From NCBI GenBank assembly GCA_019422525.1, contig JAHZDE010000009.1, positions 37,150 through 101,149 of the forward strand: a DNA stretch of 64,000 nt, given 5' to 3'. This document shows, in pieces, positions 55,494-63,675 of this stretch (its first letter is position 1; every line of letters begins with the position of its first letter). The notes beneath the pieces are model-generated. The model saw only the letters and a program-made list of their open reading frames with translations. It was not told the origin of the DNA and did not search any database. This stretch comes from Clostridiales bacterium (GTDB taxonomy: Bacteria > Bacillota > Clostridia > Oscillospirales > Acutalibacteraceae). A program made the position numbers and the translations under genes.

Positions 55494-57929
55494 TTACCGT
55501 TTTGTAAGCGCTGCACGGGCAATGTCGCGTCTTCGGGCAAAGATGGGAACAGACGGATATTGCTCGGAGAGTTTTGTCCAAATCTCCAGCGCTTTTTGTA
55601 AATAGGCAATTGATTCATCAATCCGGGTGTGGGTATCATCGCTGTTTTGAAAGCTGTTTGAAAGGGAAGGATACAGTTTGGCTAATTGTTGTTCCAAGAC
55701 TTTCTGCTTTTGCTGCAAGTAAATGACCGAATCATCCAGCGTTCCCAGCTTATAATAGGAAAGTGCCAAGTCATCCCGCGCTTCGGGTGTGGGTGCTTCT
55801 TCTGCAAGCTGTTTGCTGATTTCCAAATCCAGCTCATAATACTTTTTGGCTGCCGGGATATCCTCTCCTGCCTTACAGATGTTTCCCATTTTCTCATAGC
55901 TGATAGACAACCCTCGATGGTTTTGTATGGTTGGCGATTCCTCTGATAGTTGTTTACTGATTTCCAATGAAACCTCATAATACTTTTTGGCTGCCGGGAT
56001 ATCCCCTTTTGCCTTCAAGATGTCTCCCATTCTCTCATAGCTGATGGACAAATCCCGGCGCATCTGAATGGTCGGGGATTCCTCTGATAGTTGTTTGCTG
56101 ATTTCCAATGAAACCTCATAATACTTTCGCGCGGCCGGGATATTTCCTTCTGCCTTCAAGATATCACCCATTTTCTCATAGCTGATGGACAACCCCCGGC
56201 GGTTTTGTATGGTTGGCGATTCCTCTGCAAGCTGTTTGCTGATTTCCAAGAAAAGTTCATAAAACTTCTGGGCGGCCGAGATATCCCCTTCTGCCTCACA
56301 GATGCCTCCCATTCTCTCATAGCTGATGGATAGGCTCCGGCGCATCTGGATTGTCGGCGATTCCTCTGCAAGCTGTTTGTTGATTTTCAAAGCAAGCTCA
56401 TAATACTTTCGGGCGGCCGGGATATCCCCTTCTGCCTTTAAGATATCTCCCATTCTCTCATAGCTGACAGACAAATCTCGGCGACTCTGAATTGTCAGCG
56501 ATTTCTCCGCAAGCTGTTGGAATATATCTATTTCCAGCTCATAATATTTCCGGACGGCTGGGATATCCCCTTCTGCCTTTAAGATGTCTCCGAGCTTATT
56601 ATAGCTGACAGCTACATATCGATGTGCAGAAGAAAACTGATACTTTTCCCACGCTGTTTTGCAAAGGGGCAGCAGCTTGGTTTCCCAAACCCACCGCCAG
56701 TTAGAAATCTCTTCCAGCTCTTTATAAAAATCGCCCAAATCCCACCAAGCATTGGTGAGTTCAAGGAAGGTATCCTCTGTTTGAGTTTCTTCCCATGCCT
56801 TTTCCCTAATCTCCACCAGCTTTTTTTGCCAGTCGATAGCCTTGTGAGAATCCCTCTTCACGCCTTCGCCGGAATGGTACATGGAAACAAGCTTTTCCAT
56901 GGCCGGCTCATAGCCCTGCTGGGCTGCGCCCCGGATGAGTGTTTCTGCCCGGTAATGGTCTACTTCCACGTCAATACCCGCCAAATAAGCAAGGCCGATA
57001 AAAAAGTTGTGCTGGGCATCGTCATCATTTTCCCGGATAGCCACCTCCCGCAGGGCGGCGCTCAAACTCTCCGTCAAGGCTGGAGTATCTTCCCCATTGG
57101 TGCAGGAGGGCATGGACTCATAATAGCTTTCCAGCTCCGGACGACCGGTGGGCGTCATTTCCACTGGCAGGATGGGCTTCCCGGCCGCTTTTGCCATGGG
57201 ATACTCAGTGGTCATCACATAGTTGGGGTTTTCCAGCAGACTGGGCGTGACAACCAAGGTGAAGAGCTTACTCTTTTGAAGCGCGTCTATAATGGCCTGA
57301 TTAAAGTTTTCGCCCGGGACTAAAAACTCATCGTACCAGATGGCAATGTCCCGGCAGAATTCGTTTTGATGGATAAGACGCATGAGCTTTTGGGCTTCCC
57401 GGCGGTCCTTTTTTCGATAGCTGAGAAAAATATAAGCGTCAAAGGCTGCCCGCACCTTTGCTGCCAATTCATCGCCCACCAGCACAGAATCCAAAAACTT
57501 TTGCAGCTTTTCTTCAAAGGGAATAGCTGTGCTGTCGTGGGCGTTTGCGTCCAAAAACTGCAAGTCACCGAATTTTTCCTGAAACTTTTCTTCCAGCCCC
57601 GATTCCTGCATCAAAGGCAGCACCGGGATGTGGTGCTCGATGGCAAAGGGAAACTCCTTGTCCATGGCCCGGTTGGGCTGAGTCAGCAGCCGCTCGGTTA
57701 CCGGCATAACAAAAAGCTGCATTTGGGAAAGGTCGGCAGAAAGCTCCTCCCAATTATAGGGCGCTTCCGGCTCGGCATCGTACCAAATAGCACAGTTTTG
57801 CAGCGCTAAAATCTGCTGGCTGATGGGCTTTAGAAAGAACTCCTGCTCTTTGGGATGGCAGCAAAAATAAACCCGGGGCTTTCCCTGGGGGCTGGCGCTT
57901 CCACGAGTGAGATATTGAAGTTTTGACAT
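55494..57929 (-). CDS. Paralogue A: tandem TIR-like domains + SEL1-like segment + 6 x 47-aa TPR-like repeats (811 aa)
   Basis: Domain 1 has PRVYFCCHP...AIWYD...LFVMPVTERLL...DKEFPFA...IPVLPL. Domain 2 has YIFLSYRKKDRREAQ...IAIWYDEFLVPGENF...LFTLVVTPSLL...TTEYPMA...KPILPV, a classic bacterial TIR beta-alpha pattern. The SEL1-like segment reads IGLAYLAGIDVEVD...AMEKLVSMYHSGEGVKRD. The repeats have the form LSISYERMGDILKAEGDIPAARKYYEL.L.ISKQLAEESPTIQ. Confidence 0.7.
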   Translation of the reverse strand: MSKLQYLTRGSASPQGKPRVYFCCHPKEQEFFLKPISQQILALQNCAIWYDAEPEAPYNWEELSADLSQMQLFVMPVTERLLTQPNRAMDKEFPFAIEHHIPVLPLMQESGLEEKFQEKFGDLQFLDANAHDSTAIPFEEKLQKFLDSVLVGDELAAKVRAAFDAYIFLSYRKKDRREAQKLMRLIHQNEFCRDIAIWYDEFLVPGENFNQAIIDALQKSKLFTLVVTPSLLENPNYVMTTEYPMAKAAGKPILPVEMTPTGRPELESYYESMPSCTNGEDTPALTESLSAALREVAIRENDDDAQHNFFIGLAYLAGIDVEVDHYRAETLIRGAAQQGYEPAMEKLVSMYHSGEGVKRDSHKAIDWQKKLVEIREKAWEETQTEDTFLELTNAWWDLGDFYKELEEISNWRWVWETKLLPLCKTAWEKYQFSSAHRYVAVSYNKLGDILKAEGDIPAVRKYYELEIDIFQQLAEKSLTIQSRRDLSVSYERMGDILKAEGDIPAARKYYELALKINKQLAEESPTIQMRRSLSISYERMGGICEAEGDISAAQKFYELFLEISKQLAEESPTIQNRRGLSISYEKMGDILKAEGNIPAARKYYEVSLEISKQLSEESPTIQMRRDLSISYERMGDILKAKGDIPAAKKYYEVSLEISKQLSEESPTIQNHRGLSISYEKMGNICKAGEDIPAAKKYYELDLEISKQLAEEAPTPEARDDLALSYYKLGTLDDSVIYLQQKQKVLEQQLAKLYPSLSNSFQNSDDTHTRIDESIAYLQKALEIWTKLSEQYPSVPIFARRRDIARAALTKR
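55779..56624 (-). repeat. Six tandem 141-bp coding repeats (47-aa TPR-like units) in paralogue A
   Basis: The CTCATAAT landmark recurs at 55833, 55974 and 56115, exactly 141 bp apart. The units are nearly identical to one another. Confidence 0.9.
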
Positions 57930-57977
57930 AAAGATACCCCCTTCTACTGTTTGTTTGATTATTCTACCTCATGTACT

Positions 57978-58006
57978 ATCATACAAGGATTTCTTATCGA
58001 GTACAA
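57978..58006 (-). promoter_or_regulatory. Promoter of paralogue A (TTGTAC-17-TATGAT)
   Basis: The hexamers and 17-nt spacer are conserved in position upstream of all three paralogues. Confidence 0.5.
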
Positions 58007-58039
58007 CTATATAATAAAGTTTCTTTTGTTTTTTCGCCA

Positions 58040-58090
58040 AAAAACAGCAAAAAGCCGGAGTGCCATGGAAACGGACGGCATTCCGGCTTG
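58040..58090 (-). terminator. Rho-independent terminator after paralogue B
   Basis: On the minus strand, AAGCCGGAATGCC...GGCACTCCGGCTT forms a hairpin followed by TTTGCTGTTTTTT. Confidence 0.7.
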
Positions 58091-58095
58091 GTGAT

Positions 58096-60702
58096 TTAGT
58101 TTTCTCCCCGGGCAAGCAGCGAACGGGCAAAATCACGGTTTTGGGCATAGTAGGCAACCATTGGGTATTGCTCGGAAAGCCTTGTCCAAATGTCCAGCGC
58201 TTTTTGTAAGGAACTTACCGAATTTCCCAGTATTCCCAACTTATAGTAAGAAACCGCCAAGTCATCCCATGCTTCGGGTGAGGGCACTTTCTCCGCAAGC
58301 TGTTTGCTGATTTCCAGATCCAGCTCATAGTACTTCCGGGCAGTCGGGAGATCTCCTTCTGCTGTTGAGGTATCTCCCAACTTGTTATAACTAATGGATA
58401 AATCCCGGCAGTTTTCAATGGTCGGCGATTCTTCTGCAAGCTGTTTGCGGAGTTCCAAAGCAAGCTCATAATACTTTCGGGCGGTCGGGAGATCTCCTTC
58501 TGCTTTGCTGATGTCTCCTATACTGTTATAGCCGATAGACAGGCTTTGACGGTTTTCAATAGTCGATGATTCCTCTGCAAGTTGTTTGCTGATTTCCAAA
58601 GCAAACTCATAATACTTCCTGGCGGACGGGATGTTTCCTTCTGCTTTCAAGATACTTCCCATTATCCCATAGCTGATGGATAAAGTCCGGCGGTTTTCGA
58701 GAGTCGGTGATTCCTTCGCAAGCTGTTTGCTAATTTTCAAGAAGAGTTCATAATACTTTTTTGCTTCCGGGATATCCCCTTCTGCCTCACAGATATCTCC
58801 CATTCTCTCATAGCTGACAGACAAACCCCGGCGGTTTTGGATGGTCGGCGATTCTTCCGCAAGCTGTTGGAATATATCTGTTTCCAGCTCATAATACTTT
58901 CTGGCTGCCGGAATATTTTCTTGGGCCCTCAAGATATCACCCAGTTTTTCATAACCGATGGACAAGCTCCGGAGGTTCTCCATGGTCGGTGATTCCTCTG
59001 CAAGTTGTTTCTTGATTTCCAAGGCAAGCTCACAATACCTCCGGGTGGCCTCGATATTCCCTTGGGCCTTCAAGATGTCTCCCAGCTTGTTATAGCTGAC
59101 AGACAAATCCCGGCGGCTTTCGATGGTCGACGATTCCTCTGCAAGTTGTTTACTGATTTCCAAGGCAAGCTCATAATACTTATAGGCTTCCGGGATATCC
59201 CCTTGGACCTCACAAATATCTCCCAGTCTTTCATAGCTAATGGACAAGCTTCGGCGGTTCTCCATAGTCGGCGATTCCTTTGCAAGCTGTTTGAATATAT
59301 CTGTTTCCAGCTCATAATACTTCCTGGCGGACGGGAGATTTCCTTGGACCTTCAAGATGTCTCCCAGCTTGTCATAACTGACAGCTACACGTCGATGTGC
59401 AGAAGAAAAATGGTACTCTTCCCACACGGTTTTGCAAAGGGGCAGCATTTTGTTTTGCCAGACCCACCGCCAGTTAGGGATATCTTCCAACTCTTCATAA
59501 AAATTGCCCAAATTCCACAAGGCGTCTGTGAGTTCAAGAAAAGCATCCTCTGTTTGGGATTTTTTCCATGATTTTTCCCGGCTCTCGGTTAACTTTTCCT
59601 GCCACTCAATGGCTTTGTGATAAGCCCGTTTGACACCTTCACCAGATCGGTACATGGAAACAAGCTTTTCCATGGCCGGCTCATAGCCTTGCTCTGCTGC
59701 ACCCCGGATGAGTGCTTCCGCCCGGTGGTTATCGACTTCTACATCAATGCCTGCCAAATAGGCAAGGCCGATAAAATAGTTGTGCTGCGGGTCGTTATCA
59801 TTTTCCCGGATGGCCACCTCCCGCAGAGCGGCGGTCAAACTCTCCGTCAAGGCTGGAGTATCTTCCCCATTGGTGCAGGGCGGCACAGATTCATAACAGC
59901 TTTCCAGCTCCGGACGACCGGTGGGCGTCATTTCCACCGGCAGGATGGGCTTCCCTGCCGCTTTTGCCATGGGATACTCAGTGGTCATCACATAGTTGGG
60001 GTTTTCCAGCAGGCTGGGCGTGACAACCAAGGTGAAAAGCTTACTCTTTTGAAGCGCGTCTATAATGGCCTGATTAAAGTTTTCGCCTGGGACTAAAAAC
60101 TCGTCATACCAAATGGCAATGTCCCGGCAGAATTCGTTTTGATGGATAAGACGCATGAGCTTTTGAGCTTCCCGGCGGTCCTTCTTCCGATAACTGAGAA
60201 AAATGTAAGCATCAAAGGCTGCCCGCACTTGGGCAGCCAACTCGTCACCTACCAGCACAGAATCCAAAAACTTTTGCAGCTTTTTTTCAAAGGGAATGGC
60301 TGTACTGTCGTGAGCATTCGCGTCCAGAAACTGCAAGTCGCCGAACCGTTTTTGAAACTTTTCTTCCAAACCCGATTCCTGCATCAAAGGCAACACCGGG
60401 ATGTGGTGCTCCATGGCAAAGGGAAACTCCTTGTCCATGGCTCGGCTCGGCTGGGTTAATAGTCGCTCCGTCACCGGCATAACAAACAGCTGCATTTGGG
60501 AAAGGTCAGAAGAAAGCTCCTCCCAATTACGGGGAGCTTCCGGCTCTGGGTCGTACCAGATAGCACAGTTTTGCAGCTCTAAAATCTGCTGGCTGATGGG
60601 CTTTAAAAAGAATCCCTGCTCCTTGGGATGGCCGCAAAAATAAACCCGGGGCTTTCCCTGCGGGCTGGAATTGCCGCGGGTGAGATATTGAAACTTCGAC
60701 AC
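58096..60702 (-). CDS. Paralogue B: tandem TIR-like domains + SEL1-like segment + 8 x 47-aa TPR-like repeats (868 aa), GTG start
   Basis: Colinear with A over the first 435 codons without indels. The segment VRAAFDAYIFLSY...GRPELES (about 110 aa) is identical to A. The start codon is GTG, where A and C have ATG. Confidence 0.7.
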   Translation of the reverse strand: MSKFQYLTRGNSSPQGKPRVYFCGHPKEQGFFLKPISQQILELQNCAIWYDPEPEAPRNWEELSSDLSQMQLFVMPVTERLLTQPSRAMDKEFPFAMEHHIPVLPLMQESGLEEKFQKRFGDLQFLDANAHDSTAIPFEKKLQKFLDSVLVGDELAAQVRAAFDAYIFLSYRKKDRREAQKLMRLIHQNEFCRDIAIWYDEFLVPGENFNQAIIDALQKSKLFTLVVTPSLLENPNYVMTTEYPMAKAAGKPILPVEMTPTGRPELESCYESVPPCTNGEDTPALTESLTAALREVAIRENDNDPQHNYFIGLAYLAGIDVEVDNHRAEALIRGAAEQGYEPAMEKLVSMYRSGEGVKRAYHKAIEWQEKLTESREKSWKKSQTEDAFLELTDALWNLGNFYEELEDIPNWRWVWQNKMLPLCKTVWEEYHFSSAHRRVAVSYDKLGDILKVQGNLPSARKYYELETDIFKQLAKESPTMENRRSLSISYERLGDICEVQGDIPEAYKYYELALEISKQLAEESSTIESRRDLSVSYNKLGDILKAQGNIEATRRYCELALEIKKQLAEESPTMENLRSLSIGYEKLGDILRAQENIPAARKYYELETDIFQQLAEESPTIQNRRGLSVSYERMGDICEAEGDIPEAKKYYELFLKISKQLAKESPTLENRRTLSISYGIMGSILKAEGNIPSARKYYEFALEISKQLAEESSTIENRQSLSIGYNSIGDISKAEGDLPTARKYYELALELRKQLAEESPTIENCRDLSISYNKLGDTSTAEGDLPTARKYYELDLEISKQLAEKVPSPEAWDDLAVSYYKLGILGNSVSSLQKALDIWTRLSEQYPMVAYYAQNRDFARSLLARGEN
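58270..59397 (-). repeat. Eight tandem 141-bp coding repeats in paralogue B
   Basis: Counted from the translated repeats starting at H436. The units are moderately diverged. Confidence 0.85.
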
Positions 60703-60749
60703 GAAGATACCCCTTTCTACTGTTTTGTTTACTGTTCACCCTTATATTT

Positions 60750-60778
60750 ATGATACATGAGTTTCTTATTTTGTACAC
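60750..60778 (-). promoter_or_regulatory. Promoter of paralogue B (GTGTAC-17-TATCAT)
   Basis: Positional homologue of the A and C promoters. Its -35 is one base further from consensus. Confidence 0.4.
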
Positions 60779-60856
60779 TAATAATGGGGTTTCTTTCGAT
60801 TTTTCGCAAAAAACAATTTGTCATCGAAATGACACTTTAGCTTTTTTGCAAAGCAG

Positions 60857-63475
60857 TTATTTGCCTCTTTTTTTAAGCGCTGCGCAGGCAACATCGCGGT
60901 TTTTGAGATAGCGGGGAATGGATGGATATTCTTCAGCCAGCTTTTTCCAAATATAGAAGGCCGTTTTTAGATAGGAACGGGAACGAAAAAAAGGCCTTTT
61001 TAGAGTTCCAATCTTATAATAACAAAGGGCAAGATCTTCCCTCGACTCGGGTGTGTGTGATTCCTTAGCAAGCTGCTTCCGTATATCAAGACTTTGTCGG
61101 AAAAATTCATTCGCAGATGATAGATTCCCATTTGCCTGGCTAACATCCCCCAGCCTTTCACAACAAATAGACAGATTCCGGCGGTTTTCAAGATTTGGAA
61201 ACTTCTCGGTAAGAAGCTGGAGAATCTTGTGACAAAGTTCAAAAAAATGTCGGGCACATAACAAATTGCCTTCCATCCAGCAGATATCCCCCATTCTGCC
61301 ATAACATTCAGATAAATTCTCCCGGTTCTCAATGGTCGGGGATTTCTTTGCAATCTGCTTGGAGACTTGCAGGCTTTTCTCATAAAATCGCCGGGCAGAG
61401 GATAAATCCCCTTGCAGCTGACAAACCTCTCCCAGTTTATAATAACCGATAGACAAGTTTCGGCGATTTTCAATGGTGGGAGATTCTTCGGCAAGCTGTT
61501 TGAATAGGTTCAGGCTAAGCTGATAAAATTGACGGGCAGATGTAAGGTTCCCTTCTGTCTCACAGACTTCTCCAAGCCTGTCATAACAAATAGACAGATT
61601 CCGACGATTTGTTATCGTGCCGAACTCCTCATACAGCTGTTCGACAATCTCCAAATCCAGCTGGTAAAATTGACGGGCAGCCTTGAGATCTCCTTCCGCT
61701 TGGCTGATATCCCCAAGCCTTTCATATCCGATAGACAAGCTGTGACGATTTTGAATGGTTGGCGATTCTTCCACAATCCCTTTGATGATATCCAAATCCA
61801 GCTGATAATACTGGTGGGCAGATATAAGGTCTCCTTCTGCTTGGCTGATATCCCCCATTCTCTCATAACTAATAGATAAACTCCGGCGATTCTTCATCAC
61901 CGGCGACTCCTCCACCATCTGCTTGCAAATTCCCATGCTTAACTGATGAAACTTTTTGGCAGCCTGAATATTTCCCTGTGCTTTGCTGATATCCCCCAGT
62001 TTGCTATAATTGATGGATAATCCCTGGCGGTTTTCCATAGTCGGTGACGTTTCCACCAGCTGCTTAAAAATCTCCATACTCAGCTGATAAAATTTTCTGG
62101 CAGCCTGTAAATTTTCTTCTGCTTCCAATATGTTTCCCAGTTTATGATAACTAATGGATATACCACGGTTCGCATCAGGAAAATGGTACTCTTCCCACAC
62201 AGTCTTACAAAGCGGCAGCATTTTGCTTTCCCAAACCCACCGCCAGTTAGGGATATCTTCCAGCTCTTTATAAAAATTGCCCAAATCCCACAAGGCATCC
62301 GTGAGATCAAGAAAAGTATCCTCTGTTCGGGATTTCCCCCATGCCTTTTCACGGCTCTCAATTAGCTTTTTTTGCCAGTCAATTGCCTTTTGATAATTCT
62401 GCGCAACGCCTTCGCCGGAGCGGTACATCAAAACGAGCTTTTCCATGGCCGGATCATAGCCCTGTTCGGCTGCACCCCGGATCAGTGCTTCCGCCCGCTG
62501 ATTATCGACTTCCACGTCAATACCCGCCAAATAGGCAAGACCGATAAAATAGTTGTGCTGCGGGTCGTTATCATTTTCCCGAATGGCTAACTGCCGCAAG
62601 GCATCCAGCAAACTTTGGGACAGAGCCGGAGCATCCTCCCCATTGGTGCAGGGCGGTACGGATTCATAACAGTTTTCCAGTGCCGGGCGGCTGGTAGGCA
62701 TCATTTCCACCGGCAGGATGGGCTTCCCGGATTTCTGCGCCATGGGATACTCGGTAGTCATCACATAGTTGGGATTTTCCAGCAAGCTGGGCGTGACAAC
62801 CAAGGTGAAGAGCTTACTCTTTTGAAGTGCGTCTGCAATGGCCTGGTTGAAGTTTTCGCCCGGGACTAAAAACTCATCGTACCAGATGGCAATGTCCCGG
62901 CAGAATTCGTTTTTATGGATAAGGCGCATGAGTTTTTGGGCTTCCCGGCGGTCCTTCTTTCGATAACTGAGGAAAATATAAGCGTCAAAGGCCGCTCGTA
63001 CCTTTTGGGCCAGCTCGTCGCCAATCAAAATGGAGTTTAGGAACTTTTGCAGCTTTTCCTCAAAGGGGATAGCTGTGCTGTCGTGAGCGTTCGCATCCAG
63101 AAACTGTAAGTTCCCAAACCGTTTTTGGAATTTCTCTTCCAGCCCCGATTCCTGCATCAGGGGAAGCACTGGGATATGGTGTTCCACAGCGAAAGGGAAC
63201 TCTTTGTCCATGGCTCGGTTGGGCTGGGTTAGCAACCGCTCGGTTACCGGCATAACAAAAAGCTGCATTTGGGAAAGGTCAGCAGAAAGCTCCTCCCAGT
63301 TATCGGGGACTTCCGGTTCTGGATCGTACCAGATAGCGCAGTTTTGCAGCTTTAAAATTTGCTTGCTGATGGGTTGTAAAAAGAATTCCTGCTCCTTGGG
63401 ATGGCCGCAAAAATAAACCCGGGGCTTTCCCTGCGGGCTGGAACTGCCGCGAGTGAGATATTGAAGCTTTGACAT
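60857..63475 (-). CDS. Paralogue C: tandem TIR-like domains + SEL1-like segment + 8 x 47-aa TPR-like repeats (872 aa)
   Basis: Same architecture, and the N-terminal 435 codons are colinear with A and B. Its repeat units are the most diverged of the three (for example LSICYDRLGEVCETEGNLTSARQFYQLSLNLFKQL). Confidence 0.7.
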   Translation of the reverse strand: MSKLQYLTRGSSSPQGKPRVYFCGHPKEQEFFLQPISKQILKLQNCAIWYDPEPEVPDNWEELSADLSQMQLFVMPVTERLLTQPNRAMDKEFPFAVEHHIPVLPLMQESGLEEKFQKRFGNLQFLDANAHDSTAIPFEEKLQKFLNSILIGDELAQKVRAAFDAYIFLSYRKKDRREAQKLMRLIHKNEFCRDIAIWYDEFLVPGENFNQAIADALQKSKLFTLVVTPSLLENPNYVMTTEYPMAQKSGKPILPVEMMPTSRPALENCYESVPPCTNGEDAPALSQSLLDALRQLAIRENDNDPQHNYFIGLAYLAGIDVEVDNQRAEALIRGAAEQGYDPAMEKLVLMYRSGEGVAQNYQKAIDWQKKLIESREKAWGKSRTEDTFLDLTDALWDLGNFYKELEDIPNWRWVWESKMLPLCKTVWEEYHFPDANRGISISYHKLGNILEAEENLQAARKFYQLSMEIFKQLVETSPTMENRQGLSINYSKLGDISKAQGNIQAAKKFHQLSMGICKQMVEESPVMKNRRSLSISYERMGDISQAEGDLISAHQYYQLDLDIIKGIVEESPTIQNRHSLSIGYERLGDISQAEGDLKAARQFYQLDLEIVEQLYEEFGTITNRRNLSICYDRLGEVCETEGNLTSARQFYQLSLNLFKQLAEESPTIENRRNLSIGYYKLGEVCQLQGDLSSARRFYEKSLQVSKQIAKKSPTIENRENLSECYGRMGDICWMEGNLLCARHFFELCHKILQLLTEKFPNLENRRNLSICCERLGDVSQANGNLSSANEFFRQSLDIRKQLAKESHTPESREDLALCYYKIGTLKRPFFRSRSYLKTAFYIWKKLAEEYPSIPRYLKNRDVACAALKKRGK
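61043..62170 (-). repeat. Eight tandem 141-bp coding repeats in paralogue C
   Basis: Counted from the translated repeats starting at N436. Confidence 0.85.
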
Positions 63476-63523
63476 AAAGATACCCCTTCCTACCGTTTGT
63501 CTGATTGCTCACCCTTATGTTTT

Positions 63524-63552
63524 ATGATACAGGAGTTTCTCATTTGGTACAA
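63524..63552 (-). promoter_or_regulatory. Promoter of paralogue C (TTGTAC-17-TATCAT)
   Basis: Hexamers with a 17-nt spacer, about 50 nt upstream of the ATG. Confidence 0.5.
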
Positions 63553-63592
63553 GTAATACAATAGATTTTCTTCCGATTTTTCGCAAAACAAC

Positions 63593-63640
63593 AAAAAAAA
63601 CCGAACCTCTTTCCTGTGAAAAAAGGTTCGGTTTTTATTT
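63593..63640. terminator. Bidirectional terminator after the Rrf2 gene
   Basis: A8-CCGAACC...GGTTCGG-T5ATTTT. Confidence 0.7.
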
Positions 63641-63675
63641 TCTCGAATATCGGAGGCCAGCGCTCCCGCTCCTGC

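What the first reader, a model, noticed from the sequence alone, without database searches (positions are those of the whole stretch)
55779..62170. Highly regular 47-aa (141-bp) TPR-like repeat arrays with different copy number and different degrees of homogenisation
After a colinear 435-aa N-terminal part, each paralogue carries n x 47-aa units plus a degenerate cap. A has 6 units (55779-56624), B has 8 (58270-59397) and C has 8 (61043-62170). The scaffold R-x-LS-x-SY-x-x-x-G-D-I-x-x-x-x-G-x-x-x-x-A-x-x-x-Y-x-L-x-L-x-I-x-K-Q-L-A-E-E-S-P-T-I-x-N is retained. Units in A are almost identical to each other, suggesting recent expansion or conversion. Units in C differ at many surface-type positions. 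The 47-residue period is longer than the canonical 34-aa TPR and the 42-aa KLC-type unit. This pattern of a constant effector with a variable solenoid is what one expects for a recognition surface under diversifying selection. The 141-bp direct repeats also make copy number prone to recombinational change.
Basis: seen in the sequence. Interest (0 to 1): 0.6.

Follow-up and report, generated by a model that had tools for sequence, protein, structure and literature searches.

The report
47-residue TPR sensor arrays, tandem-TIR paralogues
Three neighbouring genes of a gut Clostridia bacterium each join a conserved double-TIR head to a regular 47-residue helical-repeat arm whose exposed residues differ between the gene copies but are kept between species; this fits a set of fixed-specificity receptors of a partly known, untested immune-like kind, not a fast-mutating surface.

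Summary
The arrays are real and lie at the stated coordinates, on the minus strand: 6, 8 and 8 indel-free 47-aa units in genes A, B and C. "Units in A almost identical" is overstated: they share 51-87% aa identity.

The 47-aa period holds across this large tandem-TIR/Sel1/TPR family. A 47/48-aa version is also the repeat arm of bacterial NLR-like (STAND) proteins with TIR, DUF4062 or kinase heads.

AlphaFold2 gives each unit as two long helices (20 and 21 residues). Differences between units concentrate at positions 3, 6, 9, 10, 13 and 16 (exposed face of helix A) and 31 and 35. These positions:
- evolve at omega about 1, never clearly above it;
- are not enriched for change between orthologues;
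- are strongly enriched for change between paralogues.

Unit number is unchanged in close strains. What varies is gene number: A is absent from a 96%-identical strain. Two alleles on a conjugative element also carry different arrays.

I read this as paralogue-specific, stable binding surfaces on a probable one-protein TIR sensor/effector. An ongoing arms race is not supported, and function is untested. This scan has met the family before in other genomes.

The parts
55494..57929 (-). Gene A, 811 aa: TIR-like, TIR_2, Sel1, then 6 x 47-aa TPR units and a long cap
   Evidence: ORF. Pfam TIR_2 E 3e-13, TPR_12 E 1e-25. This gene is absent from the syntenic locus of a strain about 96% identical (L089).
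55779..56624 (-). Array A: 6 units of 141 bp / 47 aa (aa 436-717)
   Evidence: Unit table. Within-array identity: nt 66-87%, aa 51-87%. TRF period 141, score 895.
55497..55778 (-). Cap of A (aa 718-811): one degenerate unit, a 37-aa insertion and a capping helix
   Evidence: The same long cap occurs in the conjugative-element homologue P0005 and in the partial gene of congener G003.
58096..60702 (-). Gene B, 868 aa (GTG start): same architecture with 8 units
   Evidence: AF2 full-length model: pLDDT 90.5, pTM 0.77.
58270..59397 (-). Array B: 8 units (aa 436-811)
   Evidence: AF2 shows each unit as helix A of 20 aa, a 3-aa turn, helix B of 21 aa and a 3-aa turn. Foldseek matches LGN/Pins and OGT TPR superhelices.
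58099..58269 (-). Cap of B (aa 812-868)
   Evidence: The junction of the strain-specific deletion maps here: the 86 bp at 58124-58209 are homologous to 55516-55601.
60857..63475 (-). Gene C, 872 aa: same architecture with 8 divergent units
   Evidence: Four alleles in public data are all 872 aa long.
61043..62170 (-). Array C: 8 units (aa 436-811)
   Evidence: Within-array identity: aa 34-66%, nt 50-70%.
60860..61042 (-). Cap of C (aa 812-872)
59893..60210 (-). TIR domain 2 of B (aa ~165-270). Equivalents: A 57120-57437, C 62666-62983. The invariant Glu242 codon is at 59977-59979 (A 57204-57206, C 62750-62752).
   Evidence: Pfam TIR_2. E242 is present in 70 of 70 homologues. Foldseek matches AbTir, SARM1, MAL and MyD88 TIR domains. 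The profile hits AbTir at E 0.004, but that alignment places AbTir's NYE Glu opposite V238.
60328..60654 (-). TIR-like domain 1 of B (aa ~17-125). Equivalents: A 57555-57881, C 63101-63427. It is a diverged duplicate of TIR2.
   Evidence: BLASTP of aa 1-160 against aa 161-300: E 8e-9, 34% identity over 70 aa. E92 is kept in only 50 of 70 homologues. The AF2 model shows a flavodoxin-like beta-alpha pattern.
59557..59790 (-). Two Sel1-like repeats of B (aa 305-382). Equivalents: A 56784-57017, C 62330-62563.
   Evidence: Sel1 repeat protein 6ok3: E 5e-19 with the single sequence, 1e-30 with the profile. Pfam Sel1 hits are weak.
57930..58095 (-). Upstream region of A. A block of about 110 nt before the start codon is conserved in front of all three genes (also 60703-60856 and 63476-63675).
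   Evidence: Alignment A3. A promoter-like TGTACA-16-TATCAT site and terminator-like hairpins are present. Each gene is probably transcribed on its own (inferred).
55602..58209 (-). 2,608-bp segment (tail of B, spacer, and A up to its tail) that is present here but absent in strain L089
   Evidence: blastn: L089 3535-9410 matches window 64000-58124 at 95.9%, and L089 9325-11396 matches window 55601-53530 at 96.3%. B' in L089 has an A-like C-terminal tail.

Best explanation
The three arrays are genuine TPR solenoids of an unusually long, strictly fixed 47-residue unit ('47PR'). Each unit has a 20-residue helix A and a 21-residue helix B. The arrays form the C-terminal arm of three tandem paralogues of a very large, uncharacterised family of cytoplasmic proteins of gut Clostridia. 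The family architecture is degenerate TIR, then TIR_2, then two Sel1 repeats, then a TPR array.

Shown:
- The period is a family constant. A 47/48-residue version is the repeat arm of many bacterial NLR-like STAND proteins.
- Units differ from each other mainly at eight positions: 3, 6, 9, 10, 13 and 16 on the exposed face of helix A, plus 31 and 35.
- Those residues are held by purifying selection within an orthologue lineage. They differ sharply between paralogues and between alleles on a conjugative element.

Inferred:
- The exposed face of helix A lines the concave groove, as in other TPR solenoids. Each paralogue would then carry its own stable ligand-binding surface.
- New specificities arise episodically, through gene duplication, reshuffling of internal units, array replacement and gene conversion between paralogues. 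They do not arise through continuous hypermutation or frequent changes of unit number.
- Binding of a ligand in the groove, most likely a phage or mobile-element protein, releases or assembles the TIR head. TIR2 then cleaves NAD+ or makes a nucleotide signal, and TIR1 acts as a built-in pseudo-partner in place of the NTPase switch of NLRs.
For: Layout and chance.

Period:
- Family-wide: 113 of 118 homologues have their best lag at 47 or 94. Unit starts are spaced exactly 47 in 469 of about 520 cases.
- Wider class: among the 144 best new representative hits to the array (of the 150 listed), the period is 48 in 89 and 47 in 52. Of 37 non-family hits, 14 have AAA_16, 7 NPHP3_N, 12 TIR_2, 5 DUF4062 and 4 Pkinase.

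Structure: AF2 pLDDT 90.5 with 20+3+21+3 units. Foldseek finds LGN/Pins, OGT and CTPR superhelices.

Variable positions:
- The same positions come out in 26 homogenised family arrays and, independently, in 38 homogenised non-family arrays (Spearman 0.72, p 4e-8).
- Helical periodicity on helix A: p=0.006.
- Mean omega is 0.88 on the helix-A stripe, 0.41 on the outer stripe of helix B and 0.13 in the core.

Orthologues against paralogues:
- D against its orthologue in congener G003: both 916 aa with 9 positional units. Array omega is 0.32. The variable positions show 17/72 differences against 104/351 elsewhere (odds ratio 0.73, p 0.32).
- Window against L089: array omega 0.16 and 0.25; only 2 of 23 changes fall at the variable positions.
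- Paralogues: 75% against 47% (p 5e-5), 56% against 29% (p 7e-4), 65% against 46% (p 0.03).
- A recent paralogue pair within one MAG: 43% against 9%.

Episodic change:
- A is absent in L089, with a hybrid B/A tail.
- The first 290 nt of C' are 94-99% identical to A.
- Conjugative-element alleles L088 and L090 have flanks 97-100% identical but arrays only 55-76% identical, with 8 against 7 units.

Sensor/effector reading:
- TIR fold; E242 invariant in 70 of 70; the WYDEF...G BB-loop motif is shared with the NADase AbTir.
- No TM segment: maximum KD over a 19-aa window is 0.94.
- No conserved partner gene in 80 loci.
- Patchy distribution: found in 1 of 8 congeners.
- The conjugative-element copies lie next to HamB-like helicases and a GmrSD_N gene.
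- E. coli TIR-II, a single TIR+TPR protein, defends against phage (PMC11350192).
Against: - No function has been tested.
- The chromosomal locus sits between housekeeping genes (Rrf2 and yqeK-rsfS-leuS) with no defence neighbours.
- PADLOC gives only weak ThsB/SAVED-TIR hits (E about 1e-4) and generic TPR hits.
- In the only significant sequence alignment to a solved NADase TIR (AbTir), the catalytic Glu of the NYE motif falls opposite V238, four residues before the invariant E242. Catalytic competence is therefore unproven.
- The concave-face assignment rests on the TPR register and a helical wheel.
- Positions 31 and 35 lie between two hydrophobic stripes of helix B, so their exposure is uncertain.
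- The orthologue test rests on one well-diverged pair plus two close pairs.
- The set of variable positions was defined on data that include the window's own arrays, which makes the paralogue test slightly circular.
Confidence: 0.55

Rival explanations
1. First reader's version. The solenoid is a recognition surface in a continuing arms race. Positive diversifying selection acts at the surface positions. Frequent unequal recombination among the 141-bp units changes copy number, as in fungal NLR repeats.
For: - Variable positions cluster on one helix face.
- Some family members have highly homogenised arrays that differ almost only at these sites, for example L013/L007, with 43% against 9% differences.
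- Two alleles on the same conjugative element differ in array sequence and unit number.
- Unit number ranges from about 1 to 12 across the family.
- There is a fungal precedent (PMC4986451).
Against: - Site omega is about 1, not above 1. At the variable sites of the recent paralogue pair it is 0.45.
- Orthologue arrays have omega 0.16-0.32 with no enrichment at the variable sites.
- Unit number is invariant in 4 C alleles, 2 B alleles and the D orthologue pair.
- Internal conservation here is 47-69% aa, well below the roughly 80-85% and above reported for the fungal and bacterial NLR cases. Exact matches between units are at most 31 bp.
Confidence: 0.15
2. The arm is an ordinary scaffold or adaptor TPR. 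The differences between units are drift at weakly constrained exposed residues. The TIR head serves protein-protein assembly, not catalysis, and the protein has a housekeeping or regulatory role.
For: - The chromosomal context is housekeeping.
- There is no match to a defence system.
- Site omega is about 1, which is compatible with neutrality.
- E242 is not aligned with the catalytic Glu of AbTir.
- TIR domains act as scaffolds in animals (established knowledge).
Against: - The variable positions are conserved between orthologues (omega 0.25), so they are constrained within a lineage.
- The exposed outer face of helix B is much less variable than the helix-A face (omega 0.41 against 0.88).
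- The distribution is patchy and multi-copy, and some copies ride on mobile elements.
- The same repeat class is attached to NLR-type NTPases, DUF4062 and TIR heads.
Confidence: 0.15
3. The groove binds a small endogenous or secreted peptide or metabolite, as in the RRNPP-type TPR receptors of Firmicutes. Each paralogue senses a different signal and couples it to TIR-made nucleotide signalling.
For: - Specificity residues fixed in orthologues but different between paralogues are also the pattern seen in Rap/Phr-type families (established knowledge).
- The protein is cytoplasmic.
- The paralogues are tandem, and each has its own conserved upstream region.
Against: - The 154-166 bp spacers leave no room for a cognate peptide gene, and no conserved neighbour was found in 80 loci.
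- There is no DNA-binding or phosphatase output domain.
- An array of 8-10 long units forms a groove sized for a protein or a long peptide, as in LGN.
Confidence: 0.08

Closest known systems
TPR sensor arrays of fungal and bacterial NLR-like (STAND) proteins (Dyrka et al. 2014, PMC4986451; Dyrka et al. 2020, bioRxiv 10.1101/2020.01.06.895854)
   Same: - A repeat arm C-terminal to an immune-type effector head.
- Long KLC-like TPR units.
- Differences between units confined to a few helix positions, which map to the concave side in the fungal case.
- Reshuffling of internal units.
- The closest sequence relatives of the window's array are such proteins (AAA_16/NPHP3_N with TIR_2, DUF4062 or kinase heads), and they vary at the same positions.
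   Different: - No NTPase module here; a second, degenerate TIR and two Sel1 repeats take its place.
- The unit is 47 aa, not 42.
- Internal conservation is only 47-69% aa, against about 80-90%.
- No positive selection and no repeat-number polymorphism were detected in close strains.
E. coli TIR-II anti-phage system (single-protein TIR + TPR; Nat Commun 2024, PMC11350192)
   Same: - One polypeptide with an N-terminal TIR and a C-terminal TPR array.
- No obligatory partner gene.
- Widespread.
   Different: - Sequence relatedness could not be tested, because no sequence was available.
- About 30% of TIR-II relatives carry an ATPase.
- The window's family has a tandem TIR plus Sel1 repeats, and lives in gut Clostridia.
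- Its anti-phage activity is untested.
Kinesin-light-chain / LGN-type long TPRs ('42PR' class; nPR nomenclature cited in PMC5642895)
   Same: - TPR fold with lengthened A and B helices.
- G and A signature residues 12 positions apart.
- Pfam TPR_12 and TPR_10 match.
- Best structural matches are LGN/Pins and the bacterial KLC-like protein.
- In LGN, ligands bind the inner groove lined by the A helices.
   Different: - The period is 47, not 40-42.
- The helices are about 20 and 21 residues, some 3 residues longer again than in 42PR.
- Counted from the conserved Pro, the extra residues lie between that Pro and the conserved core of helix A; AF2 puts them at the N-terminal end of that helix.
DSR2 and SpbK (NADase head plus helical or solenoid sensor that binds a phage structural protein; PMC11850899, PMC12847820)
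   Same: The logic proposed here: a single protein in which an alpha-helical sensor arm binds a phage protein directly and switches on an NAD+-consuming head.
   Different: - DSR2 has a SIR2 head and a HEAT-like arm.
- SpbK has no repeat array.
- Neither has a tandem TIR or a regular TPR array.
- No trigger is known here.
AbTir-type bacterial TIR NADases (PDB 7uwg, 7uxu, 8g83)
   Same: - TIR fold: Foldseek TMt 0.76, rmsd 2.7 over 139 columns.
- Shared WYDEF-x-L-x-x-G BB-loop motif and an NY motif at the start of helix C.
   Different: - The catalytic Glu of AbTir aligns with V238.
- The family's invariant Glu is one helical turn later.
- The Trp that precedes the catalytic Glu in AbTir is missing.

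Membership tests
TPR superfamily (Pfam clan CL0020) | Pfam TPR models match above their curated thresholds | tested here: met
   TPR_12 scores 90-118 bits (cut-off 30.1). TPR_10, TPR_2 and TPR_8 are also above cut-off in all three proteins.
TPR superfamily (Pfam clan CL0020) | Helix-turn-helix unit that stacks into a superhelix | tested here: met
   AF2 model pLDDT 90.5, with regular helix pairs from residue 385 to 867. Foldseek E 1e-11 to OGT, LGN and CTPR superhelices.
TPR superfamily (Pfam clan CL0020) | Signature small residues G8 and A20, 12 positions apart, with large hydrophobics at positions 4, 7, 11 and 24 | tested here: met
   G at unit position 12 and A at 24, each in 95% of 500 units. 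Y8, L11, L/C15 and Y28 are conserved.
Canonical 34-residue TPR / 42-residue KLC-type TPR | Repeat period of 34 or 42 residues | tested here: not met
   The period is exactly 47 in all 22 units and in 469 of about 520 unit spacings across homologues. Relatives in STAND proteins use 48 or 47.
NLR-type highly conserved sensor repeats (fungal/bacterial STAND) | Repeat arm attached to a NACHT/NB-ARC/AAA_16 NTPase | tested here: not met
   No NTPase domain in Pfam or NCBIfam. The AF2 model shows TIR, TIR, Sel1, TPR only.
NLR-type highly conserved sensor repeats (fungal/bacterial STAND) | Internal repeat conservation of about 80-85% or more | tested here: not met
   Window arrays are 69, 61 and 47% aa identical on average. 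Some family members reach 0.77-0.83, and the arrays of the L013/L007 pair look still more homogeneous by eye.
NLR-type highly conserved sensor repeats (fungal/bacterial STAND) | Variable sites confined to the ligand-binding (concave) face | tested here: inconclusive
   The sites form a stripe on the exposed face of helix A (p 0.006). By the general TPR rule helix A lines the concave face (PMC5642895).
NLR-type highly conserved sensor repeats (fungal/bacterial STAND) | Positive selection (omega > 1) at the variable sites | tested here: not met
   Site omega is 0.99-1.29 with confidence intervals that include or touch 1. It is 0.25 between orthologues and 0.45 in a recent paralogue pair. These are counting estimates without a recombination-aware model.
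NLR-type highly conserved sensor repeats (fungal/bacterial STAND) | Repeat-number polymorphism among close strains | tested here: not met
   C: 4 alleles, all 872 aa. B: 868 and 865 aa (a tail swap). D: 916 aa in two species. Only the two conjugative-element alleles differ, with 8 against 7 units.
E. coli TIR-II single-protein TIR+TPR defence | TIR and TPR in one polypeptide, with no obligatory partner | tested here: met
   No conserved neighbour in 80 loci.
E. coli TIR-II single-protein TIR+TPR defence | Protection against phage that depends on the TIR active site | not testable with these tools
   Needs plaque assays with wild type and an E242A mutant.
E. coli TIR-II single-protein TIR+TPR defence | Sequence homology to the TIR-II protein | not tested
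   No supplementary file of PMC11350192 is held, so no sequence was available.
Catalytic TIR NADases | Catalytic Glu on helix C at the position of AbTir E208 / SARM1 E642 | tested here: inconclusive
   E242 is invariant (70 of 70) and lies on helix 237-248. The profile alignment to AbTir puts AbTir's NYE Glu opposite V238, four residues upstream. That this NYE Glu is the catalytic residue (E208) rests on my own knowledge.
Thoeris (ThsB + ThsA) | TIR protein encoded next to a ThsA-type effector | tested here: not met
   ThsB hits are only E about 5e-4. No ThsA-like or any other conserved neighbour was found.

The most novel reading that the evidence does not exclude
The 47/48-residue TPR unit would be a portable recognition module of bacterial innate immunity. 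It would carry a common eight-position specificity code (3, 6, 9, 10, 13, 16, 31, 35), shared by NLR-like STAND receptors and by an NTPase-less class of tandem-TIR receptors that is abundant in gut Clostridia. In that class the degenerate first TIR would replace the NTPase as the switch. The multi-copy paralogues (four in this genome) would form a germline repertoire, each member tuned to a different conserved phage or mobile-element protein.
Probability: 0.25. Interest if true: 0.7.

Novelty: new variant of a known kind. Interest (0 to 1): 0.42.

Why it matters
If the reading holds, gut Clostridia carry thousands of one-protein TIR receptors that lack the NTPase switch of NLRs. Their specificity would be written in a short, regular set of residues per repeat.

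That would make specificity readable, and perhaps re-programmable, from sequence. It would also give a simple system for asking how a repeat arm controls a TIR enzyme.

One result has methodological value for other repeat receptors. Positions that vary between units turn out to be conserved between orthologues. Variability between units alone should therefore not be read as an arms race.

As it stands, the finding is a careful description of a known type of architecture with no functional data.

Tried and rejected
- Mapping variable sites on the model: structure prediction returns no coordinates and none reached the Python box. I used DSSP boundaries and helical wheels only.
- Super-repeats: TRF reports periods of 423 and 282 bp, but their match rates (72-81%) are about the same as for 141 bp. 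The identity matrix shows no 2- or 3-unit register. Rejected.
- Known defence systems: PADLOC gives only generic TPR/PDC-S39 hits and weak ThsB/SAVED-TIR hits. NCBIfam gives sub-threshold TPR hits only.
- Phage or plasmid carriage of the tandem-TIR head: no phage hit, and only Sel1-only hits on plasmids.
- Conserved partner gene: none in 80 loci.
- Diversity-generating retroelement or targeted hypermutation: no reverse-transcriptase-like ORF among the neighbours. Rejected.
- Peptide-signal cassette: the spacers are too short.
- P0122 (635 aa) as a short-array allele: it is B truncated inside unit 3 by unrelated sequence, either a disruption or an assembly chimera. It is not a unit-number variant.
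- Literature on a '47-residue TPR': nothing found. Marold 2015 (the nPR classes) is not held.
- The TIR-II sequence could not be obtained.
- PDB entry 9m0n/9umd, an 824-aa 'tetratricopeptide repeat protein' with a weak TIR-like match (E 0.34), could not be traced to a paper and is not among the best profile hits.


Full report
OBSERVATION

The region holds three colinear genes on the minus strand: A 55494-57929 (811 aa), B 58096-60702 (868 aa, GTG start) and C 60857-63475 (872 aa). An anchor motif recurs at exactly 47-residue spacing in all three.

This is far beyond chance. Lag-47 identity is 0.74, 0.62 and 0.52, against at most 0.13 at any other lag (z = 34-39). Tandem Repeats Finder reports period 141 with scores of 821-1068.

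One descriptive claim is too strong. The units of A are not nearly identical: they share 51-87% aa (mean 69%) and 66-87% nt (mean 76%). That is only slightly more than A units share with B units (73% nt). The ranking A > B > C in homogeneity is correct. Within 73 arrays of homologues, mean within-array identity runs from 0.28 to 0.76 (5th-95th percentile). A is therefore high, B above the median and C at the median.

WHAT THE PROTEINS ARE

Pfam finds TIR_2 at residues 167-266, weak Sel1 hits near 305-370, and strong TPR_12, TPR_10 and TPR_2 hits over the arrays.

Residues 1-160 are a diverged duplicate of the TIR domain (BLASTP E 8e-9). The head is therefore a tandem TIR.

AlphaFold2 with 83 homologues gives a confident full-length model (pLDDT 90.5, pTM 0.77). 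It shows two flavodoxin-like domains, two Sel1 repeats (305-382), a degenerate TPR-like unit (385-432), the eight units, a degenerate unit and a capping helix. Each unit consists of:
- helix A of 20 residues (unit positions 45-47 and 1-17);
- a 3-residue turn (18-20);
- helix B of 21 residues (21-41);
- a 3-residue turn (42-44).

Foldseek matches the arm to the LGN/Pins, OGT and designed CTPR superhelices. It matches the head to the TIR domains of AbTir, SARM1, MAL and MyD88. There is no transmembrane segment.

THE FAMILY AND THE REPEAT CLASS

The N-terminal 435 residues find more than 3,200 proteins, almost all unnamed or called 'TIR domain-containing' or 'tetratricopeptide repeat protein'. 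They come from Clostridia MAGs and range from 489 to 1,234 aa. At least 531 loci occur in species-representative genomes. Most are Oscillospiraceae, Lachnospiraceae and Acutalibacteraceae, with a few Spirochaetaceae, Chloroflexota and Bacilli from animal guts.

The 47-residue period is a constant of the family:
- the best lag is 47 or 94 in 113 of 118 homologues;
- HMM unit starts are spaced by exactly 47 in 469 of about 520 cases.

A search of 1.84 billion representatives with the array alone returned 1,935 proteins at E <= 1e-30. Among the best 144 new hits, 114 have a different head. The period is 48 (89 proteins) or 47 (52 proteins), and lag identity reaches 0.90. Of 37 such proteins, 14 carry AAA_16, 7 NPHP3_N (NACHT-like), 12 TIR_2, 5 DUF4062 and 4 protein-kinase domains.

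The window's unit therefore belongs to a 47/48-residue TPR class. That class is the usual repeat arm of bacterial NLR-like proteins. The extra residue of the 48-mer lies just after the conserved Pro (consensus). In the nPR nomenclature quoted in PMC5642895 this would be a '47PR'. I found no paper that describes such a period.

WHERE THE UNITS DIFFER

Within the 22 window units, the most variable columns are 3, 9, 16, 22, 23, 31, 33 and 35.

In 26 homologue arrays that are at least 55% self-identical, mismatches concentrate at 3, 6, 9, 10, 13, 16, 31 and 35.

The same positions top the list in 38 homogenised arrays from non-family, mostly STAND-type proteins (Spearman 0.72, p 4e-8). This is an independent confirmation.

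On helix A the variable positions follow alpha-helical periodicity. They lie opposite the conserved L4, Y8, L11, G12, I14 face (p = 0.006 for site omega and 0.017 for mismatch). With the 22 window units alone the test is not significant (p = 0.28).

In TPR register (G12 = G8, A24 = A20) these positions are -1, 2, 5, 6, 9 and 12. They lie on the helix that lines the concave groove in TPR solenoids (PMC5642895).

The exposed outer stripe of helix B is clearly less variable (mean omega 0.41 against 0.88). The pattern is therefore not simply 'exposed means free'. Positions 31 and 35 lie between two hydrophobic stripes of helix B. They may reach the groove floor between adjacent A helices, but that is unverified.

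IS IT DIVERSIFYING SELECTION?

Four tests bear on this:
- Nearest-neighbour unit pairs. From 107 pairs in 21 arrays, global omega is 0.43 and core sites are below 0.15. The variable sites are at 0.99-1.29, with bootstrap intervals that include or touch 1.
- Window paralogues. The head has dN/dS 0.09-0.12, and the arrays are saturated at synonymous sites.
- True orthologues. Window against strain L089 (about 96% nt identity): array omega is 0.16 (C) and 0.25 (B), and only 2 of 23 replacements fall at the variable positions. The fourth paralogue D against its orthologue in a congener: both are 916 aa with nine positionally matching units. Array omega is 0.32, against 0.10-0.14 for the TIR domains. 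The eight variable positions carry 17/72 differences against 104/351 elsewhere (odds ratio 0.73, p 0.32; omega 0.25 against 0.34).
- Paralogues. The same positions are enriched for differences: B/C 75% against 47% (p 5e-5), A/B 56% against 29% (p 7e-4), A/C 65% against 46% (p 0.03). A recent paralogue pair within one MAG shows 43% against 9%, yet omega there is only 0.45.

So the residues that make the units different are specificity-type residues. They are fixed within a lineage and reset between paralogues. This fits a repertoire of receptors with stable targets better than a running arms race.

COPY NUMBER AND RECOMBINATION

Unit number did not change in any close comparison. Four C alleles are all 872 aa, B is 868 or 865 aa, and D is 916 aa in two species. 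In-register exact matches between units are at most 31 bp in A, 30 bp in B and 19 bp in C, which is poor substrate for homologous recombination.

What does vary is the following:
- Gene number. The syntenic locus of strain L089 reads Rrf2, C', B', yqeK, rsfS, leuS and lacks A. The junction lies in an 86-bp stretch shared by the caps of B and A, and B' carries an A-like tail. A is old (dS about 0.5 to B), so a deletion by recombination between paralogues is the simpler reading.
- Gene conversion in the head. The first 290 nt of C' are 94-99% identical to A but only 83-89% identical to C.
- Array replacement. Two alleles sit on the same conjugative-element backbone. Their flanks are 97-100% identical and their 5' parts 91-100%, but the arrays are only 55-76% identical. 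One has 8 homogenised units with a long cap and the other 7 divergent units with a short cap.
- Reshuffling of internal units. The first units of A and B (A1/B1) are each other's nearest relatives, and B's last unit (B8) is closest to A's last (A6). Six of the eight B units have their nearest relative in A. A's units have no positional counterparts in its closest homologue P0005.

A's head is closest to the conjugative-element copies (90.5-90.7%), and A shares their long cap.

CONTEXT AND FUNCTION

In the window the genes lie between an Rrf2 regulator and yqeK-rsfS-leuS, with no mobility or defence gene nearby. Each gene has its own conserved upstream block of about 110 nt.

No neighbour is conserved across 80 loci. 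The family is patchy: it was found in 1 of 8 congeners and 1 of 24 genomes of the same family searched. It is multi-copy, with four copies here.

The conjugative-element copies sit directly after two HamB-like DEAD-box helicases and a GmrSD_N gene, and before a TraG-type coupling protein. PADLOC recognises no system.

A single-protein TIR+TPR system of E. coli, TIR-II, does protect against phage. Its trigger is unknown (PMC11350192). NADase heads with helical sensor arms that bind phage structural proteins are known in DSR2 and SpbK.

TIR2 is very strongly conserved. The motifs FLSYRKKDR and AIWYDEF-L-x-x-GE and the residues N236, E242 and P244 are invariant in 70 sequences. It shares the WYDEF...G motif with the NADase AbTir (E 0.004).

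One caution applies here. In that alignment AbTir's catalytic Glu (the NYE motif; its catalytic identity rests on my own knowledge) falls opposite V238, four residues before E242. The family also lacks the preceding Trp. Other indel placements still leave an offset of 2-4 residues. E242 is on the same helix, but whether it is the catalytic residue is open. E92 of TIR1 is kept in only 50 of 70 sequences, so TIR1 is probably a non-catalytic partner.

VERDICT

The arm has the anatomy of a recognition surface and belongs to the repeat class used by bacterial NLR-like receptors. However, the data point to paralogue-specific, stable specificities renewed by duplication and recombination. They do not point to continuing diversifying selection or unstable unit number.

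The architecture (TIR + TPR) and the evolutionary style (NLR-type repeats) are both known. The new elements are the 47-residue unit, the absence of an NTPase, the tandem TIR, and the contrast between orthologues and paralogues at the variable sites.

Earlier notes of this scan describe the same family in several other genomes and name the same closest relative. I had reached the TIR-II paper independently.

Noticed in passing
window 55602-58209, compared with L089:9325-9410: Gene A is absent from the syntenic locus of a strain about 96% identical. The breakpoint lies in an 86-bp stretch shared by the caps of B and A, and the remaining B' has an A-like tail. This is gene-number polymorphism through recombination between paralogues.
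   Followed up: yes
window 63186-63475 (5' end of C), compared with L089:4059-4348: The first ~290 nt of C' in the other strain are 94-99% identical to gene A of the window but only 83-89% identical to C. dS between C and C' is 0.67 in TIR1 but 0.06 in the array. This indicates patchy gene conversion among the 5' halves.
   Followed up: partly
L088:10001-12715 and L090:10001-12463: Close homologues (87-89% identical in the head; 904 and 820 aa) sit on a conjugative-element backbone, after two HamB-like DEAD-box helicases and a GmrSD_N gene and before a TraG-type coupling protein and an NS_2 endonuclease. The two alleles have near-identical flanks but very different arrays.
   Followed up: partly
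L091:2309-4216: A 635-aa B-like protein from a human-gut metagenome matches B closely up to unit 3 and then runs into unrelated sequence, next to RepA_N and Mob_Pre genes. It is either a disrupted copy on a mobilisable element or an assembly chimera.
   Followed up: partly
G000:C1:477778-480528 (L004:34-2784, minus strand): A fourth paralogue (916 aa, 9 units, 64% identical in the head) lies next to an RtcB-like gene. Its orthologue in a congener has the same length and the same positional units.
   Followed up: yes
proteins P0130-P0273: 47/48-residue TPR arrays with up to about 90% identity between successive units occur in long proteins with AAA_16/NACHT-like NTPase modules and TIR_2, DUF4062 or kinase domains (Pfam); some N-termini also look caspase- or trypsin-like by eye. 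This is a large class of bacterial NLR-like receptors that shares the same variable positions.
   Followed up: partly
L009:7614-10109 and five other loci: A different 831-aa TIR-domain protein is encoded next to the family gene in 6 of 80 loci.
   Followed up: no
L054:1675-4734: A 1,019-aa protein has a single ordinary TIR head (no tandem TIR) and units spaced by 47 residues. The arm may therefore have been exchanged between heads.
   Followed up: no
PDB 9m0n / 9umd: A solved 824-aa 'tetratricopeptide repeat protein' has a weak N-terminal match to the TIR2 profile (E 0.34). It may be a solved TIR-TPR protein. No paper was found.
   Followed up: partly
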